A DNA stretch of 64,000 bases, from the sequence record NC_019503.1, one strand, 5' to 3'. This stretch comes from Escherichia phage ime09. Position numbers and translations under genes: made by a program. This document shows, piece by piece, positions 18,868-37,875 of this stretch (positions within the stretch are counted from its first letter, which is position 1; the number at the start of each line of letters is the position of its first letter). A model generated the notes under the pieces. That model worked only from the letters and a program-made list of their open reading frames with translations. It searched no databases and was not told where the DNA came from.

Positions 18868-19848
18868 TTATTTCAGAAGAGTAACCTCAGCGATTTCTTC
18901 CCAACCGTTTTTATCGGTCATAATAAAGTCAGCAAGATAAAGAGCAGTACGCAGTGAAACATTGCGTAAACGATTAACATTAACTTTCATCCATGATAAT
19001 GCTTTATAAGTTTCTTCATCAGAAAGACCGCGCTTTTGCATCATGTCAGTTGAAAGAATAACATCTTCAACCCTGACCATAATTTCTTCATTAGTGTGAA
19101 CACCCAAATCCAAATAAACCGAGCGGGACACTAATGCTTGTAAATGTGGAGCAAGTTTAGTACCACGGTCTAATTCGCGGTCAATGTCAACGTTTGTGAT
19201 AAAAACAATCGTTCCTTTAAATTCAAACTCACGGTCAATGCCTTTTTCTTCTAAGTAAGAAGATGCAGTGCTCCAGCAGACTTTACGGGTCTCTCCGGTG
19301 TCCAGAGCGGCTTTTAGAAGATTAAGAATGTCCATATCAGAGAAAACATCCACATCATCAATCAAAAGGACAGAATTCTCTTCACGATTATTCCAAAGCT
19401 GCTCATAAAGACCAATACCAGAGATTTTACCATTAATGCTTTTATATTCAATGTATCCAATATCATTTGCTTTATTTAAAGCTTTATCTAAAGAATACGT
19501 TTTACCAATACCTGCTGCGCCAGAGATAATCAATGAACGAATATTTCCGTTAATAATACCATTCGTCATCATTCCCATAACATTAAATCTTTTATTAATG
19601 CGGGTTTTCATATCTTCATACGATTCTTTAACTTCTTCAACTTTTACACCATCATATGAAATATCTGATTTGTAAACCCAAACACCGCGACGTTTACCGT
19701 CAATTTCAACAAAAACTTTACCATCTCCTTGTGCATCTACCGGAGCATTATCTGGGAACCATTCGCCTAAGAGCTCAAAAGTTCCAGAGATTTCTTTACC
19801 GAAGTAGATACCCTTATTGATAGTTACAGTTTTCATTTTATTCTCCAA
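18868..19848 (-). CDS. P-loop NTPase (AAA-like) with ~110-aa N-terminal domain
   Basis: 326 aa, Walker A GAAGIGKT, Walker B VLLIDDVD; own early promoter upstream. Confidence 0.6.
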   Translation of the reverse strand: MENKMKTVTINKGIYFGKEISGTFELLGEWFPDNAPVDAQGDGKVFVEIDGKRRGVWVYKSDISYDGVKVEEVKESYEDMKTRINKRFNVMGMMTNGIINGNIRSLIISGAAGIGKTYSLDKALNKANDIGYIEYKSINGKISGIGLYEQLWNNREENSVLLIDDVDVFSDMDILNLLKAALDTGETRKVCWSTASSYLEEKGIDREFEFKGTIVFITNVDIDRELDRGTKLAPHLQALVSRSVYLDLGVHTNEEIMVRVEDVILSTDMMQKRGLSDEETYKALSWMKVNVNRLRNVSLRTALYLADFIMTDKNGWEEIAEVTLLK

Positions 19849-19867
19849 ATCCGTATCAGTTGATAGT

Positions 19868-19920
19868 TGTATAGTACCATAAAGCTTTATGCTTGTAAAC
19901 TGTTTTGTGAAAATTTTTTG
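19868..19920 (-). promoter_or_regulatory. T4-type early promoter (minus strand) for the ATPase gene
   Basis: plus-strand tatagtacc (19871-19879), tgtaaac (19894-19900), gtgaaaatttttt UP element. Confidence 0.55.
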
Positions 19921-19932
19921 AAATAAAAAAAA

Positions 19933-19950
19933 AGGGAGCCCGAAGGCTCC
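19933..19950 (-). terminator. Rho-independent terminator after the NTase gene
   Basis: GGGAGCCcgaaGGCTCCC hairpin followed by a 9-U run on minus-strand RNA. Confidence 0.7.
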
Positions 19951-19953
19951 CTA

Positions 19954-20967
19954 TCATTTATAATAACTTCGGTGGTTTTCAAGATAAACCCTCTCAAGGA
20001 AGTCATCCCAAAAACCCATGTCTACTTTTTGCTGCATACCGTTCTTAGAAGCTTCAATAGATGCTGCTTCTACTTGATCGACCACATCTTCCAAAAACTC
20101 TTGAACAGTTTTAAATGGGTGTTTACCCAGCTTCACGTCGAGAATAAATGGAGCGTCTTGAAGTGGATAGACTAAGTCACCAGTTTTGTAAATTTCCAAT
20201 AGTTGGAGTCCACCACGACAAGCATGACTCAGTGCTTTCCAGTCAATGCCCTCATTCGCTTCAGCCTTACGAGCACGTTCACCGTATTCGGCATCAAGTT
20301 TATTCAAAGACTGCTTAAGCTCAATAAGAGAAAGTGTTGTCTGATATTTACGACCCAACACAGTGTAGAACGTTTGTGGACCGGTTTTCTCATGATTATG
20401 GAATACCCATTCACAAAACTCGTTTTCAGGGAGTCGGTGTTTGATATCTTCTACCTTAGTTCGGCGTAAACGATCTGGAATTCCCTCTTGGTAATCAACC
20501 CACTGGTCAGGGATTTGATTAACTACTTTCAATACATCACGTAATGCGGCCAAACGAGAACCCTTGACACCGTATTTAGAAGCTTGCTTGCGAACATATC
20601 CTAAATAGGATTTCATGTTAGTCGTATAAAAACGAGAACGATTGTCTTGAATAAACTTCCATACATCAGGCAAATCAGATTTAACTACCAGTTCAGGTGG
20701 AGTGTGGAGCATATCCAATGCTACGGTTTCACCATCTGCTGCTAATTTAAAGAAATACTTAAGACTGTATAGTTCATGGTCAATATCATCTTTGGTGTTT
20801 TTAGATGATGTGTTGTTAGTGTTTTTACTCATATGCTCTTTAACATTTCCAATAAGAATATCGCGAGCAGGAGGAACAAAGATTTCTTTAAAATCTACAT
20901 CAGATTCTGGAGTAGAAGTTCCATAAAGATGACTACCAAAATAGCTTTTCATTACTGTTTTCATCAT
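19954..20967 (-). CDS. Pol-beta-superfamily nucleotidyltransferase-fold protein
   Basis: 337 aa, N-terminal hG[S]x9-13DxD signature (FGSHLYGTSTPESDVDFKEIF) plus downstream acidic residue (ALDML); 4-bp overlap with upstream membrane protein gene. Confidence 0.6.
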   Translation of the reverse strand: MMKTVMKSYFGSHLYGTSTPESDVDFKEIFVPPARDILIGNVKEHMSKNTNNTSSKNTKDDIDHELYSLKYFFKLAADGETVALDMLHTPPELVVKSDLPDVWKFIQDNRSRFYTTNMKSYLGYVRKQASKYGVKGSRLAALRDVLKVVNQIPDQWVDYQEGIPDRLRRTKVEDIKHRLPENEFCEWVFHNHEKTGPQTFYTVLGRKYQTTLSLIELKQSLNKLDAEYGERARKAEANEGIDWKALSHACRGGLQLLEIYKTGDLVYPLQDAPFILDVKLGKHPFKTVQEFLEDVVDQVEAASIEASKNGMQQKVDMGFWDDFLERVYLENHRSYYK

Positions 20968-21425
20968 TCAGCCTTATATTCAATAACAGGACATACTTTA
21001 GCTTTACGCGCTTTTAAAAATTCGACGATAATAGATTTCTTTGGTTGAATAGGAGGTAAACCTTTATACGCCCTATCAATATTTTCTACATGTAAAGCAT
21101 AATCCTTTTTCCATTTATAATCTTTATATTTTTCATGCAGTTGTGCAGGAATAACAAATGAACCAATAATAAGTAAAACAAGCAAAATAGCAAGTATAAA
21201 TGCTGATGGAATAAGAGTCCATAAACTACCAAAAATAAGCCATTTCTGCATGATTTCTGCGCAGATGATAGTTAGACCTGCGAGTATAGTACATCCGAAA
21301 AAAGAAACGAAAAATGTAGGAATAACAATAGACCAAAAATACGCGCACAGTGTCTTAGGTCGTTTCCATTCGTCGTTAAACATTTTGAATAATTTATAAT
21401 GCCAAGAGTTTTCATTAATAATCAT
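20964..21425 (-). CDS. Integral membrane protein (about three transmembrane helices)
   Basis: 153 aa, hydrophobic segments; stop overlaps NTase start (translational coupling). Confidence 0.55.
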   Translation of the reverse strand: MIINENSWHYKLFKMFNDEWKRPKTLCAYFWSIVIPTFFVSFFGCTILAGLTIICAEIMQKWLIFGSLWTLIPSAFILAILLVLLIIGSFVIPAQLHEKYKDYKWKKDYALHVENIDRAYKGLPPIQPKKSIIVEFLKARKAKVCPVIEYKAE

Positions 21426-21427
21426 AA

Positions 21428-21949
21428 TTATCCTTTCATTGAAGGTGTAACAGTTGTTAAATACTTAATCATAGCTTCAGCTTCTGATTTTGATAATGAA
21501 ATTTCTCCATTGTTTTGACGAATAGAAATAAAATCCGGATGACGGTCACCACCAGCTTTCAAAACACACATATAAGTATCAGTTTCATCTTCAATATCTG
21601 AAATGATTGAAGCAGTTCCGCATGAATGTGGTTTTTGATAAATCAATGCAGCTTTTCTTCCACCGTTTGACTGTTCATAAACTTTTAACACATCAAACAA
21701 ATCACTTCTTTTATCAATAGCTAAGATGTTGTTTTCATCTTCAATGTTAAATCCTTCGGATACTTCATAAAGTGTCACCCATAAATCGCCAATATCAATG
21801 ACAGCATTCACCTTTCCATGATTTTCAAGAGCATTACAAATTTTCTTAATTTCATCATAACTCATTTTAATAATATCATCTCCTTGAATAAAGAAGATGT
21901 CATTTTTAAATTCAACGCGAATTAAACCACTTTCACTTGAAATAAACAT
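21428..21949 (-). CDS. Hypothetical protein (paralog pair member)
   Basis: 173 aa; C-terminus ...SKSEAEAMIKYLTTVTPSMKG resembles C-terminus of next gene. Confidence 0.5.
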   Translation of the reverse strand: MFISSESGLIRVEFKNDIFFIQGDDIIKMSYDEIKKICNALENHGKVNAVIDIGDLWVTLYEVSEGFNIEDENNILAIDKRSDLFDVLKVYEQSNGGRKAALIYQKPHSCGTASIISDIEDETDTYMCVLKAGGDRHPDFISIRQNNGEISLSKSEAEAMIKYLTTVTPSMKG

Positions 21950-21955
21950 ATTTCC

Positions 21956-22513
21956 TCACTTTGAAATCATAGTTGGAATGACAGAATCAAGATAAGTCTT
22001 TAGCGCAATAGCTTCGTCTTTGGTAAATGTGACAATATGCGATCGAAAATCATCAATTTGACGAATAGTTAAGACATCTCCATCTTCATAGCATTTTGAC
22101 ACATTTAAAACAGTTTCATCATTCTGATTGCAAGCGTTAGTAATAATAGCATTGCAATTTTTGAGCCATTTTAAACTATGTTTTCTTTCATTAGAATAAT
22201 AAAAATATTTAATCTTATCTATAAAACTATCCCAATGGATAACTGATAAGCACATTGACTCACTTTTAATATTAAATCCTGGGCATGAAGAATAAAAATG
22301 AATTTTGTGCTCATCATTGATGCTTACTATTTTATCAGTATAAGGATATTCAATTTGGGTTAAATGAATGATTTCACTAGGCGTAAAATATAGCATATCG
22401 TCTTCTTGCGTCAAACGATACATGTTATTTACTTTTTCTATAGCCAATTCGCCAAAAAGCGGACTAACTTCTAATACTAATCGTTTCATATTGATTCTCT
22501 TCGACTCACTCAC
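21956..22513 (-). CDS. Hypothetical protein (paralog pair member)
   Basis: 185 aa; C-terminus ...TKDEAIALKTYLDSVIPTMISK. Confidence 0.5.
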   Translation of the reverse strand: MSESKRINMKRLVLEVSPLFGELAIEKVNNMYRLTQEDDMLYFTPSEIIHLTQIEYPYTDKIVSINDEHKIHFYSSCPGFNIKSESMCLSVIHWDSFIDKIKYFYYSNERKHSLKWLKNCNAIITNACNQNDETVLNVSKCYEDGDVLTIRQIDDFRSHIVTFTKDEAIALKTYLDSVIPTMISK

Positions 22514-22644: not shown

Positions 22645-22680
22645 GATTACTATACCATAACCTTGCCAACTTGTAAACCA
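22645..22680 (-). promoter_or_regulatory. T4-type early promoter (minus strand)
   Basis: plus-strand actatacc (-10 on minus) and tgtaaac (22672-22678). Confidence 0.45.
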
Positions 22681-37043: not shown

Positions 37044-37119
37044 TGGTCGAGGCAGTAGGGATCGAACCTACGACCTAGGACTTAGAAGGTCCTTGCTCTT
37101 CCTTCTGAGCTATGCCTCG
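37044..37119 (-). tRNA. tRNA-Arg (anticodon TCT)
   Basis: Hand-folded cloverleaf on minus strand; anticodon loop CTTCTAA; CCA encoded. Confidence 0.85.
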
Positions 37120-37123
37120 TATT

Positions 37124-37198
37124 TGGCGGACGTGATAGGATTCGAACCTATAACCAATCGCTTAACAGGCGATCGCTCTGCCATTGAGCTACACATCC
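37124..37198 (-). tRNA. tRNA-Asn (anticodon GTT)
   Basis: Hand-folded cloverleaf; anticodon stem ATCGC/GCGAT, loop CTGTTAA; T-loop TTCGAAT; CCA encoded. Confidence 0.8.
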
Positions 37199-37202
37199 AA
37201 AT

Positions 37203-37289
37203 TGGTGGGGAGTGATGGAGTCGAACCACCCGAGTCGCAATGACAATGGATTTACAGTCCACACCGCTACCTCTACGGGATAACTCCCC
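37203..37289 (-). tRNA. tRNA-Tyr (anticodon GTA), long variable arm
   Basis: Hand-folded; acceptor GGGGAGT/ACTCCCC, anticodon loop CTGTAAA, long extra arm; CCA encoded. Confidence 0.8.
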
Positions 37290-37302
37290 TTAATTCTTAA
37301 TT

Positions 37303-37377
37303 TGGTGGCCCTGGGTGGAATTGAACCACCATCTGGCGATTATGAGTCGCTTGCTTGAACCTTCCAGCTACAGGGCC
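37303..37377 (-). tRNA. tRNA with CAT anticodon (Met, or Ile if lysidine-modified as for T4 tRNA-Ile)
   Basis: Hand-folded; acceptor GGCCCTG/CAGGGCC, anticodon loop CTCATAA, T-loop TTCAATT. Confidence 0.75.
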
Positions 37378-37378
37378 T

Positions 37379-37454
37379 TGGTGCTGATTGACGGAATCGA
37401 ACCGCCGACCTTCTCATTACAAGTGAGTTGCTCTACCTACTGAGCTAAATCAGC
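37379..37454 (-). tRNA. tRNA-Thr (anticodon TGT)
   Basis: Hand-folded; acceptor GCTGATT/AATCAGC, anticodon loop CTTGTAA, T-loop TTCGATT. Confidence 0.85.
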
Positions 37455-37459
37455 AAAAC

Positions 37460-37549
37460 TGGCGGAGGCGATAGGATTTGAACCTATGAGTCGCCGGAGC
37501 GACTGCCGGTTTTCAAGACCGGTGCATTAAACCACTCTGCCACGCCTCC
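37460..37549 (-). tRNA. tRNA-Ser (anticodon TGA), long variable arm
   Basis: Hand-folded; acceptor GGAGGCG/CGCCTCC, anticodon loop CTTGAAA, long extra arm. Confidence 0.85.
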
Positions 37550-37551
37550 AG

Positions 37552-37625
37552 TCTCCATACAAGGATTTGAACCTTGGACCTCCTGATCCCAAATCAGGCG
37601 CTCTACCAAACTGAGCTACACGGAG
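37552..37625 (-). tRNA. tRNA-Pro (anticodon TGG), CCA not encoded
   Basis: Hand-folded; anticodon loop TTTGGGA, T-loop TTCAAAT; abuts tRNA-Ser. Confidence 0.85.
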
Positions 37626-37635
37626 TAAATTAAAT

Positions 37636-37709
<74 letters not shown>

Positions 37710-37714
37710 AAATT

Positions 37715-37801
37715 TGGTGCGAGAAGTGGGACTCGAACCCACAAGGAAATCATTCCGCAGCATTTTAAGTGCTGTGCCTTTACCAATTTGGCCATTCTCG
37801 C
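37715..37801 (-). tRNA. tRNA-Leu (anticodon TAA), long variable arm
   Basis: Hand-folded; acceptor GCGAGAA/TTCTCGC, anticodon loop CTTAAAA, T-loop TTCGAGT. Confidence 0.85.
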
Positions 37802-37802
37802 G

Positions 37803-37875
37803 CTGGGAATAAAGGACTCGAACCTTTGCATCCTGGAATCAAAATCCAGTGCCTTACCAACTTGGCTAATTCCCA
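37803..37875 (-). tRNA. tRNA-Gln (anticodon TTG), CCA not fully encoded
   Basis: Hand-folded; acceptor TGGGAAT/ATTCCCA, anticodon loop TTTTGAT, T-loop TTCGAGT. Confidence 0.85.

What the first reader, a model, noticed from the sequence alone, without database searches (positions are those of the whole stretch)
18868..21425. Membrane protein + Pol-beta nucleotidyltransferase operon with adjacent P-loop ATPase inside the phage early region
A ~3-TM membrane protein gene (20964-21425) is translationally coupled (4-bp overlap) to a 337-aa protein with the Pol-beta nucleotidyltransferase signature (GS...DxD, then a third acidic residue). The pair ends in a strong terminator (19933-19950). A P-loop ATPase with an extra N-terminal domain follows, on its own early promoter. 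An NTase plus membrane partner resembles signalling/effector modules such as minimal CBASS or MNT-type systems. In a lytic phage it could be a counter-defence, a superinfection-exclusion module or a host-takeover nucleotide modifier. I do not recognise a characterised T4 function for these genes.
Basis: partly seen in the sequence, partly recalled or inferred. Interest (0 to 1): 0.65.

Follow-up and report, generated by a model that had tools for sequence, protein, structure and literature searches.

The report
T4 NrdC.11-type RNA-repair nucleotidyltransferase (RlaP)

Summary

The window is a Tequatrovirus. The genes are orthologues of T4 nrdC.11 (nucleotidyltransferase) and nrdC.10 (AAA+ ATPase), plus a membrane gene that T4 lacks.

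NrdC.11 passes Pfam's cut-off for RlaP (PF10127). A 2025 preprint names T4 NrdC.11 as RlaP and shows that Pseudomonas RlaPs add 1-2 NMP to RNA 3'-OH ends. The predicted fold is a kanamycin-NTase/HalB-type core plus a HEPN-like bundle, not cGAS/CD-NTase, and PADLOC finds nothing. Distant clade members lie next to RtcB, Rnl1, Rnl2, Rnl5 or Pnkp, never next to the membrane or ATPase gene.

The CBASS/MNT signalling reading is not supported; "counter-defence" survives as RNA repair. Four-bp overlaps are common here (10 of 77 gene pairs). NrdC.10 is its own early transcription unit and sits among replication genes in distant phages.

One new lead: the membrane protein family lies directly upstream of an RNA-repair enzyme in three phage lineages (RlaP, Rnl5 ligase, Rnl1 ligase).

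Verdict: already known, interest about 0.36.

The parts
19954..20967 (-). nrdC.11 orthologue: 337-aa RlaP-family (PF10127) Pol-beta nucleotidyltransferase. It has an N-terminal NTase core, a variable beta-rich insert (about residues 155-209) and a C-terminal HEPN-like helical domain.
   Evidence: PF10127 43.8 bits, cut-off 23; 96% identical to T4 NrdC.11; phrog_388; conserved motifs; AF2 pLDDT 86.8; fold neighbours.
20932..20937 (-). hG[GS] motif (G11-S12) of the NTase.
   Evidence: Invariant in 73 of 73 sequences.
20893..20901 (-). Catalytic D23-x-D25 of the NTase.
   Evidence: Invariant in 73 of 73 sequences. It lies on strand 24-31 of the model.
20779..20787 (-). D61-x-D63. D63, on beta-strand 62-68, is the best candidate for the third catalytic carboxylate. 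D85 (20713-20715) is also invariant.
   Evidence: The assignment of the third carboxylate is an inference from the model's secondary structure.
20964..21425 (-). 153-aa membrane protein (PHROG 944; no Pfam family). It has a conserved N-terminal MxINxNSWHYKL...LCxYFW motif and a C-terminal KARKxKxCP motif. It overlaps the NTase start by ATGA.
   Evidence: Invariant residues: W8, H9, C27, Y29, K143, C145.
19933..19952 (-). Intrinsic terminator-like hairpin (8-bp stem, UUCG loop) followed by T9. It closes the unit that ends with the NTase.
19871..19899 (-). T4 early-type sigma-70 promoter-like site (TTTACA, 17 nt, TACTAT with an upstream TG) in front of nrdC.10.
   Evidence: This is a consensus match only.
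18868..19836 (-). nrdC.10 orthologue: 322-aa AAA+ ATPase with an N-terminal beta domain, the AAA+ core (Walker A at 19498-19521) and a helical lid/C-terminal domain. It is a separate transcription unit and not part of the NTase function.
   Evidence: phrog_1250; pLDDT 89.3; NorQ/MoxR, Hda, ORC, RFC, NtrC-type folds; replication-gene context, no RlaP nearby.
21428..22513 (-). Two tandem y05I-like paralogues (173 and 185 aa; PF24449 + PF24448), packed directly upstream of the membrane gene in the same unit.
22649..22677 (-). Nearest upstream promoter-like site (TTTACA, 17 nt, TATAGT with TG). It is the probable start of the y05I-y05I-TM-NTase unit.
   Evidence: Consensus match only.

Best explanation

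Most likely mechanism, inferred from the characterised Pseudomonas enzymes: it is a template-independent, metal-dependent (probably Mn2+) nucleotidyltransferase. It adds one or two NMPs to the 3'-OH of broken RNA, above all tRNA halves. The phage's own healing and sealing enzymes (Pnkp, Rnl1 and Rnl2, encoded elsewhere in T4-type genomes) can then rebuild a functional tRNA after a host anticodon nuclease has both cut it and removed a nucleotide, as RloC does. On this reading it is an early-expressed, dispensable counter-defence enzyme.

The 153-aa membrane protein and the AAA+ ATPase (nrdC.10) are not its obligate partners. The ATPase is a separately transcribed early gene of an AAA+ type that sits among replication genes in distant phages. 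The membrane protein is an accessory gene of unknown activity, whose family nevertheless turns up next to RNA-repair enzymes in several phage lineages.

Shown here: family membership, conserved catalytic residues, the fold, the transcription signals and the gene-neighbourhood statistics.
Inferred: the substrate, the chemistry in this phage, and the RloC-type target.
For: Family and identity:
- PF10127 RlaP scores 43.8 bits against a cut-off of 23. Every listed homologue carries PF10127.
- The protein is 96% identical to T4 NrdC.11.
- PMC12776372 places T4 NrdC.11 in RlaP SSN cluster 5. It shows that PfRlaP and PaRlaP add 1-2 NMP to RNA 3'-OH, prefer cleaved-tRNA mimics, prefer Mn2+, and do not act on DNA or protein.
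- PMC7824862 reports that RlaP is the most prevalent end-restoring NTase in jumbo phages and that its distribution tracks RNA ligases.

Conservation and fold:
- G11, S12, D23, D25, D61, D63 and D85 are invariant in 73 sequences, as are the basic and aromatic C-terminal residues K131, K135, R138, R231, W243, K244, H248 and R251.
- The AF2 model has pLDDT 86.8.

Context of this clade:
- L033: NTase, then an ATP-dependent ligase, then RtcB. L036: RtcB 4.3 kb downstream.
- Of 49 non-T4-like metagenome loci with at least 3 kb of flank, 10 carry Rnl1, Rnl2, Rnl5, RtcB, Pnkp or a metallophosphoesterase within about 6 kb, and 5 within 1.2 kb.
- T4 is annotated with rnlA, pseT and rnlB.
- A nrdC.11-mobD.3 deletion is viable in T4 (PMC9825161).

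Independence of the neighbours.
Against: - No enzyme of the T4 clade has been assayed. The characterised proteins are from a different SSN cluster.
- Only the N-terminal half (residues 7-136) aligns to the Pfam model. The C-terminal half gives no Pfam match, and the clade has a beta-rich insert that the preprint text I read does not describe for PfRlaP.
- PfRlaP is not in the PDB copy, so no direct superposition was possible.
- No RNA ligase or Pnkp gene lies in this 64-kb window.
- My neighbourhood enrichment for the clade is modest (crude p about 0.012) and uses a rough null model.
- No phenotype on RloC-type hosts is known.
Confidence: 0.7

Rival explanations
1. Same chemistry, different purpose. 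NrdC.11 adds nucleotides to RNA 3' ends, but not to rebuild nuclease-damaged anticodon loops. It could instead mend or tail tRNA 3'-CCA ends, or tail host or phage transcripts to change their stability during takeover.
For: - RlaP labels rRNA-sized, tRNA-sized and fragment-sized RNAs and uses all four NTPs and dATP, so it is not very specific.
- The preprint's authors themselves list unresolved problems with the repair model.
- The phage carries its own 10 tRNA genes.
- No RNA ligase gene is adjacent in T4-type phages.
Against: - PfRlaP prefers the 3' end of the 5' half in a cleaved-tRNA mimic over a free tRNA-like 3' end.
- Clade members recur next to ligases, Pnkp and RtcB.
- Addition stops after 1-2 nt, which is poor for tailing.
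Confidence: 0.15
2. A signalling or guard module made of an NTase plus a membrane effector, as in minimal CBASS or Hailong (HalB makes oligo-dA that keeps the HalA channel shut). The phage version would act as superinfection exclusion or as a decoy that silences such a host system.
For: - Hailong is a two-gene operon of a TM protein plus an NTase (PMC13434031).
- The TM and NTase genes overlap by ATGA in 11 of 25 loci, even where the TM protein is only about 31-34% identical to the window's.
Against: - Neither the single sequence nor a 43-sequence profile finds HalB or any other PDB NTase.
- The TM protein matches no solved chain and is only 153 aa.
- PADLOC finds nothing for any of the three proteins.
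- CD-NTases are not among the fold neighbours.
- T4 and L007 keep the NTase without the TM gene.
- Aeromonas and Pseudomonas phages carry the TM gene next to RNA ligases instead of the NTase.
- No distant NTase locus has the TM gene.
- The family is RlaP, whose tested members do not act on DNA.
Confidence: 0.04
3. An MNT/KNTase-like enzyme that nucleotidylylates a protein or small molecule, for example by AMPylating a host toxin or target as MntA does to HEPN toxins.
For: - The MNT antitoxin, DrrA, GlnE and aminoglycoside NTases appear among weaker structural matches.
- The C-terminal domain is a HEPN-like bundle, as in kanamycin NTase.
Against: - MntA NCBIfam scores 13.2 bits against a cut-off of 60.
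- No HEPN partner gene is adjacent, and there is no conserved Rx4-6H motif.
- RlaP enzymes did not label E. coli proteins.
- The family context is RNA ligases.
Confidence: 0.05

Closest known systems
RlaP family (PF10127): Pseudomonas fluorescens and P. aeruginosa RlaP (PMC12776372); T4 NrdC.11
   Same: - Pfam family match above the curated cut-off.
- Same catalytic signature.
- An NTase domain followed by a helical domain.
- Relatives of this clade lie beside RtcB, Rnl and Pnkp genes.
- T4 NrdC.11, 96% identical to this protein, is named as a member.
   Different: - It belongs to a different sequence cluster (cluster 5 against cluster 1a).
- Only the N-terminal half aligns to the Pfam model.
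- The clade has a variable beta-rich insert (about residues 155-209).
- In T4-type phages the gene is not next to a ligase.
- Activity has never been measured for this clade.
Hailong HalB/HalA (PDB 9dbh)
   Same: - Hailong is also an NTase gene paired with a membrane-protein gene.
   Different: - No sequence or profile similarity.
- HalB makes protein-primed oligo-dA, while tested RlaPs do not act on DNA.
- The membrane protein here is small and unrelated by sequence.
- The pair here is not obligate.
Kanamycin nucleotidyltransferase / 3c18 NTase-like protein
   Same: Two-domain layout: a minimal NTase followed by a HEPN-like helical bundle. Foldseek aligns about 311-318 alignment columns (gaps included) of the 337-aa query to these 252-290-residue chains.
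   Different: - 8-10% identity and low TM-scores (0.27-0.34).
- Small-molecule substrates, as opposed to RNA.
CBASS CD-NTases (cGAS/DncV-like)
   Same: Pol-beta superfamily catalytic triad only.
   Different: - No PADLOC or Pfam hit.
- No recognisable effector.
AAA+ ATPases of the MoxR/NorQ, Hda/DnaA-ORC, RFC and NtrC types (for NrdC.10)
   Same: AAA+ core with Walker A and B motifs and a lid. Foldseek probability 1.0, E about 1e-5.
   Different: - About 13% identity.
- Every Pfam AAA model scores below its cut-off.
- A unique N-terminal beta domain.
- No assignable subfamily.

Membership tests
RlaP (PF10127) | Match to the curated family model above its gathering score | tested here: met
   43.8 bits against 23, E = 3.3e-11. 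Every listed homologue carries a precomputed PF10127 assignment. L033's homologue scores 55.6 bits.
RlaP (PF10127) | Pol-beta catalytic signature hG[GS] ... [DE]x[DE] ... third carboxylate, strictly conserved | tested here: met
   G11, S12, D23, D25, D61, D63 and D85 are invariant in 73 of 73 sequences and in 43 more diverse sequences (D61 and D85 nearly invariant there).
RlaP (PF10127) | N-terminal NTase domain plus C-terminal helical domain forming a cleft, with the last helix packing back (PfRlaP crystal structure) | tested here: inconclusive
   The AF2 model has an NTase core and a helical C-terminal domain with conserved basic residues. Against that, the Pfam model aligns only to residues 7-136, there is an extra beta insert, and PfRlaP is not in the PDB copy for superposition.
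RlaP (PF10127) | Gene neighbourhood with RNA ligases or other RNA-repair genes | tested here: met
   Met for relatives of the same clade: L033 (ligase + RtcB), L036, L112, L113, L124, L136, L147, L161, L168 and L175. Not met in this window, which holds no RNA-repair gene; T4 encodes rnlA, pseT and rnlB elsewhere.
RlaP (PF10127) | Adds 1-2 NMP to RNA 3'-OH and does not act on DNA or protein | not testable with these tools
   Biochemistry exists only for the Pseudomonas enzymes.
CBASS (CD-NTase + effector) | cGAS/DncV-like CD-NTase fold or HMM | tested here: not met
   [not shown]
CBASS (CD-NTase + effector) | Adjacent effector of a known CBASS type | tested here: not met
   The TM protein and the ATPase have no PADLOC hit. 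The TM protein has no Pfam family.
MNT-HEPN type VII toxin-antitoxin | MntA-type minimal NTase model | tested here: not met
   NF047752 scores 13.2 bits against a cut-off of 60.
MNT-HEPN type VII toxin-antitoxin | Partner HEPN toxin with an Rx4-6H motif | tested here: not met
   No neighbouring gene has a HEPN hit. The fused HEPN-like domain has no conserved Rx4-6H motif.
Hailong (HalA + HalB) | HalB-type NTase | tested here: inconclusive
   [not shown]
Hailong (HalA + HalB) | HalA-type tetrameric membrane channel partner | tested here: not met
   The 153-aa TM protein matches no PDB chain at E up to 10 apart from an irrelevant hit. This is a sequence-level test only; its fold was not modelled.
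Hailong (HalA + HalB) | Obligate two-gene co-occurrence | tested here: not met
   The NTase occurs without the TM gene in T4, L007 and all distant loci. The TM gene occurs without an adjacent NTase in Aeromonas and Pakpunavirus phages.
AAA+ ATPases (NrdC.10) | Walker A and B motifs and an AAA+ fold with a lid domain | tested here: met
   GAAGIGKT and LLIDDVD are invariant. Model pLDDT 89.3. 146 PDB matches at E <= 1e-3, the top 50 all AAA+ proteins.
AAA+ ATPases (NrdC.10) | Membership of a specific curated AAA+ subfamily | tested here: not met
   All Pfam AAA and STAND models score below their cut-offs. Hda NCBIfam scores 14.6 against 194.8.

The most novel reading that the evidence does not exclude
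The 153-aa membrane protein belongs to an unrecognised family (PHROG 944; invariant W8, H9, C27, Y29, K143, C145) that is a membrane-bound accessory of phage RNA repair. Its gene lies immediately upstream of a different RNA-repair enzyme in three lineages:
- the RlaP NTase in T-even-like coliphages;
- an Rnl5/NgrRnl-type ligase in Aeromonas phages;
- an Rnl1-type ligase in Pseudomonas Pakpunaviruses, inside a phosphoesterase-ligase-kinase cassette.

It could tether or regulate the repair enzymes at the membrane, or sense or inhibit a membrane-associated anticodon-nuclease defence.
Probability: 0.25. Interest if true: 0.6.

Novelty: already known. Interest (0 to 1): 0.36.

Why it matters
Filing this gene correctly removes a tempting but wrong "phage CBASS-like module" reading. 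It also points to a concrete experiment. T4-type phages are the classical RNA-repair model (Pnkp + Rnl1 against PrrC), and RloC-type nucleases were proposed to defeat that repair by excising a nucleotide. NrdC.11 is the obvious candidate for the phage's answer, and it has never been tested in T4.

The side observation would add a new component to phage RNA repair if it held up: one small membrane protein family sits next to RlaP, Rnl5 or Rnl1 in unrelated phages. Phage RNA repair has so far been described as purely soluble enzymology.

Tried and rejected
Searches that found nothing:
- phmmer and a 43-sequence profile of the NTase against all PDB sequences: no NTase hit, so PfRlaP is not deposited in this copy.
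- The C-terminal half of the NTase alone against Pfam: nothing.
- PADLOC and NCBIfam on all three proteins: nothing meaningful.

Resources not available:
- The afdb50 fold library was not installed.
- The preprint's supplement, Burroughs & Aravind 2016 and the Hailong paper are not held. I therefore could not check whether the membrane partner was already noted in the founding comparative paper.

Leads that went nowhere:
- The roughly 400-aa gene overlapping the RlaP start in L036 and L041 has no Pfam or PDB match.
- The roughly 175-aa family that precedes the NTase in Karamvirus-like and Aeromonas phages has no Pfam match.
- The L086 membrane homologue finds nothing in the phage records.

Readings considered and rejected:
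- Translational coupling as evidence of a functional pair, because the base rate of overlaps is high.
- The ATPase as a partner of the NTase, because it has its own promoter behind a terminator and keeps different company in distant phages.
Full report
**What is there.** The window is a Tequatrovirus (T4-like phage). The region 18400-22000 matches 680 phage records, the best at 97.6% identity. On the - strand, in order of transcription, lie:
- two y05I-like paralogues (21956-22513 and 21428-21949);
- a 153-aa membrane protein (20964-21425);
- a 337-aa protein (19954-20967) whose start shares ATGA with the membrane gene's stop;
- a hairpin AGGGAGCC-UUCG-GGCUCCCU followed by T9 (19952-19933);
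- a T4 early-type promoter-like site (19899-19871);
- a P-loop protein, most likely starting at the ATG at 19836 (322 aa).

There are three corrections. The hydropathy profile fits two long transmembrane segments with both basic termini inside at least as well as three. The unit upstream of the terminator holds four tightly packed genes, not two. Four-bp overlaps are common in this genome: 10 of 77 adjacent gene pairs have exactly -4, and 24 of 77 overlap in some way. The overlap by itself says little about function.

**Identity of the genes.** In T4 the 337-aa and 322-aa proteins are NrdC.11 (annotated nucleotidyltransferase) and NrdC.10. They are 96% and 99% identical to the window's proteins. 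T4 has the HNH homing endonuclease mobD directly upstream of nrdC.11 and lacks the membrane gene and one y05I paralogue. A comparative paper of 2006 already matched nrdC.11 to COG3541 nucleotidyltransferase and nrdC.10 to AAA ATPases (PMC1524935). A deletion spanning nrdC.11 to mobD.3 is viable in T4 (PMC9825161).

**The nucleotidyltransferase.** It passes Pfam's curated cut-off for RlaP, PF10127 (43.8 bits against 23), and matches phrog_388 "nucleotidyltransferase". An exhaustive search finds 3,426 representative clusters at E <= 1e-3, with full-length relatives down to 34% identity. Every listed homologue carries PF10127.

In 73 sequences at 38-97% identity, G11, S12, D23, D25, D61, D63 and D85 are invariant. 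So is a set of C-terminal basic and aromatic residues: K131, K135, R138, R231, D242-W243-K244, H248, R251 and K279.

The AlphaFold model (pLDDT 86.8) shows an N-terminal minimal NTase core, a variable beta-rich insert (about residues 155-209) and a helical C-terminal domain. From the model, D63 on strand 62-68 is the likeliest third catalytic carboxylate. This is an inference.

Fold searches agree on the neighbourhood:

| Search | Top NTase matches | CD-NTase/cGAS |
|---|---|---|
| Foldseek vs PDB | 3c18 NTase-like protein, kanamycin NTase, Hailong HalB at probability 0.97-0.99; MNT antitoxin lower, at 0.77 | best at rank 34, probability 0.14 |

**What the family does.** A December 2025 preprint (PMC12776372) characterised two Pseudomonas RlaPs encoded between rtcB and rtcA.
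- They add one or two NMPs (or dNMPs) to the 3'-OH of RNA.
- They do not act on DNA or protein.
- They work best with Mn2+.
- They prefer the broken end of a cleaved-tRNA mimic.
- They raise the aminoacylation of a tRNA repaired after loss of one anticodon-loop nucleotide.

The authors propose that RlaP counters nucleases such as RloC that cut a tRNA and then excise a nucleotide. They explicitly place T4 NrdC.11 in the family (SSN cluster 5), but they did not assay it. A comparative study of jumbo phages reports RlaP as the most prevalent end-restoring NTase, with a distribution that mirrors RNA ligases (PMC7824862).

**Context test for this clade.** In an IMG/VR contig a 43%-identical homologue is followed by an ATP-dependent ligase and RtcB (L033). 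Another homologue has RtcB 4.3 kb downstream (L036).

I also scanned 80 metagenome loci of the clade. The membrane family occurs only in the 8 T4-like loci, and the NrdC.10-type gene in 7 of those 8. Of the 49 other loci with at least 3 kb of flank, 10 carry Rnl1, Rnl2, Rnl5, RtcB, Pnkp or a metallophosphoesterase within about 6 kb, and 5 within 1.2 kb. Under a rough null model this gives p of about 0.012.

The window itself has no RNA-repair gene. T4 encodes rnlA, pseT and rnlB elsewhere.

The recurrent partners of this NTase are therefore RNA-repair enzymes, not a membrane protein or an ATPase.

**The ATPase.** NrdC.10 has invariant Walker A and B motifs and a confident AAA+ model with an N-terminal beta domain (pLDDT 89.3). 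Its generic AAA+ neighbours are NorQ/MoxR, Hda, ORC/Cdc6, RFC, RuvB and NtrC-type activators, all at about 13% identity. No curated subfamily model reaches its cut-off.

It sits behind the terminator and has its own promoter. Several phages have the NTase without it within 6-7 kb. In Vibrio phages its homologues sit among replication and nucleotide-metabolism genes (between nrdB and a topoisomerase subunit; between dUTPase and a helicase next to clamp-loader genes), and in an Asteriusvirus among uncharacterised genes. No RlaP gene is nearby in any of the three. It is an independent gene, and my best guess is a DNA-transaction role.

**The membrane protein.** It has no Pfam family, belongs to PHROG 944 and matches no solved chain. 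The family has a conserved N-terminal motif MxINxNSWHYKL...LCxYFW, a variable hydrophobic core and a basic C-terminal motif KARKxKxCP. W8, H9, C27, Y29, K143 and C145 are invariant.

Across T-even-like genera it lies upstream of the NTase. It overlaps by ATGA in 11 of 25 loci (one more overlaps by 1 bp). In the other 13 it is separated by 0.4-1.7 kb holding a mobD-type endonuclease or a conserved protein of about 175 aa with no known family. T4 and L007 have lost it and kept the NTase.

Of 49 loci selected on the membrane protein, 33 have the NTase within 7 kb. Its other neighbours were unexpected:
- In Aeromonas phages (L073, L074, L076; 44RR2.8t) it sits just upstream of an NgrRnl/Rnl5-type RNA ligase (PF21189 + PF09414; E = 5e-54 to PDB 5cot). 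The NTase of the same genomes is about 70-90 kb away.
- In Pseudomonas Pakpunaviruses, which are not T4-like (123 Pseudomonas phage records match), it keeps all invariant residues and overlaps the start of an Rnl1-type ligase (PF09511). That ligase lies inside a cassette of metallophosphoesterase, ligase and AAA_33 kinase-like protein.
- In L086 an Rnl5 ligase plus a metallophosphoesterase lies 3.8 kb downstream.
- About ten further divergent loci show no repair gene nearby.

Three lineages with three different repair enzymes immediately downstream is unlikely by chance. A crude, post hoc estimate gives 3e-4 to 2e-3 for 8-14 lineages. This is a lead, not a result. The two held papers on RlaP do not mention such a partner, and the founding 2016 paper could not be read.

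The NTase call, the ATPase description and the transcription signals are right. The CBASS/MNT-like signalling reading is not supported, for the reasons given above. Hailong (HalA channel + HalB NTase; PMC13434031) is the closest known system with that layout, and HalB is the nearest solved NTase core. Against a Hailong-like reading:
- there is no sequence-level relation;
- the membrane protein is unrelated by sequence and small;
- the pair is not obligate;
- the family is RlaP.

I put this reading at about 4%. "Counter-defence" survives, but as RNA repair.

**Verdict.** This is the orthologue of T4 nrdC.11/nrdC.10. The NTase's family and probable function are already published, although no phage member has been tested. 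The pairing with the ATPase is positional only. The pairing with the membrane gene is not obligate, but the membrane family's recurrent position beside RNA-repair enzymes deserves a systematic test.

Noticed in passing
window 20964-21425; L073 7001-8612; L095 4001-5945; L094 3924-6764; L086 7001-13000: The membrane protein family lies immediately upstream of three different RNA-repair enzymes in three phage lineages: the RlaP NTase, an Rnl5/NgrRnl-type ligase, and an Rnl1-type ligase inside a phosphoesterase-ligase-kinase cassette. A fourth case lies 3.8 kb from an Rnl5 ligase plus a metallophosphoesterase.
   Followed up: partly
window 37044-37875 (- strand): A cluster of 10 tRNA genes (Arg, Asn, Tyr, Met-CAT, Thr, Ser, Pro, Gly, Leu, Gln). 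It explains the G+C peak at 36-38 kb. From memory, T4 has eight, so Asn and Tyr would be extra.
   Followed up: no
window 19953-20967 flanks; T4 L003 2430-3209; L012 5240-6004; L001 4564-5049: Both junctions of the NTase gene are hot spots for insertions. A mobD-type HNH endonuclease sits between the TM and NTase genes in T4 and in L012/L057 (79% identical copies). Genes of 0.5-2.3 kb lie between the NTase and the ATPase in many relatives. L007 has lost the whole y05I-y05I-TM block.
   Followed up: partly
L019 5483-6004; L022 5471-6004; L028 5487-5990; L031 5485-5991: A conserved protein of about 175 aa, with no Pfam family, is the immediate upstream neighbour of the NTase in Karamvirus-like and Aeromonas phages, usually ending in a short overlap with its start. 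It is another possible partner of unknown function.
   Followed up: partly
L028 4382-5440 and 9701-11179; L004 4998-6056; L094 6774-10293: NAD+ salvage genes lie close to the RlaP gene or to the RNA-repair cassette in several phages: NMNAT-Nudix fusions, nicotinamide phosphoribosyltransferase, PRPP synthetase and a Macro-domain protein.
   Followed up: no
L036 5787-7001; L041 5854-7008: In two marine phage-like contigs a gene of about 400 aa, with no Pfam or PDB match, overlaps the start of the RlaP gene. In L040 the same gene appears to be disrupted.
   Followed up: partly
L004 9033-12446: A contig labelled as a Bacilli MAG but phage-like in content carries at least seven tandem paralogues that start MKTRNGFVSNSSSSSFI, just downstream of its RlaP gene.
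   Followed up: no
L038 5350-10698: An IS605-type OrfB/TnpB gene lies next to the RlaP gene, and the DNMK-SSB-142-aa gene block is duplicated on both sides of that pair.
   Followed up: no
window 21428-22513; L094 4729-5004: The membrane gene is preceded by putative DNA-binding proteins in two unrelated contexts: two y05I-like "putative transcription factor" paralogues here, and an HTH_37 protein that overlaps it by ATGA in Pakpunavirus.
   Followed up: no
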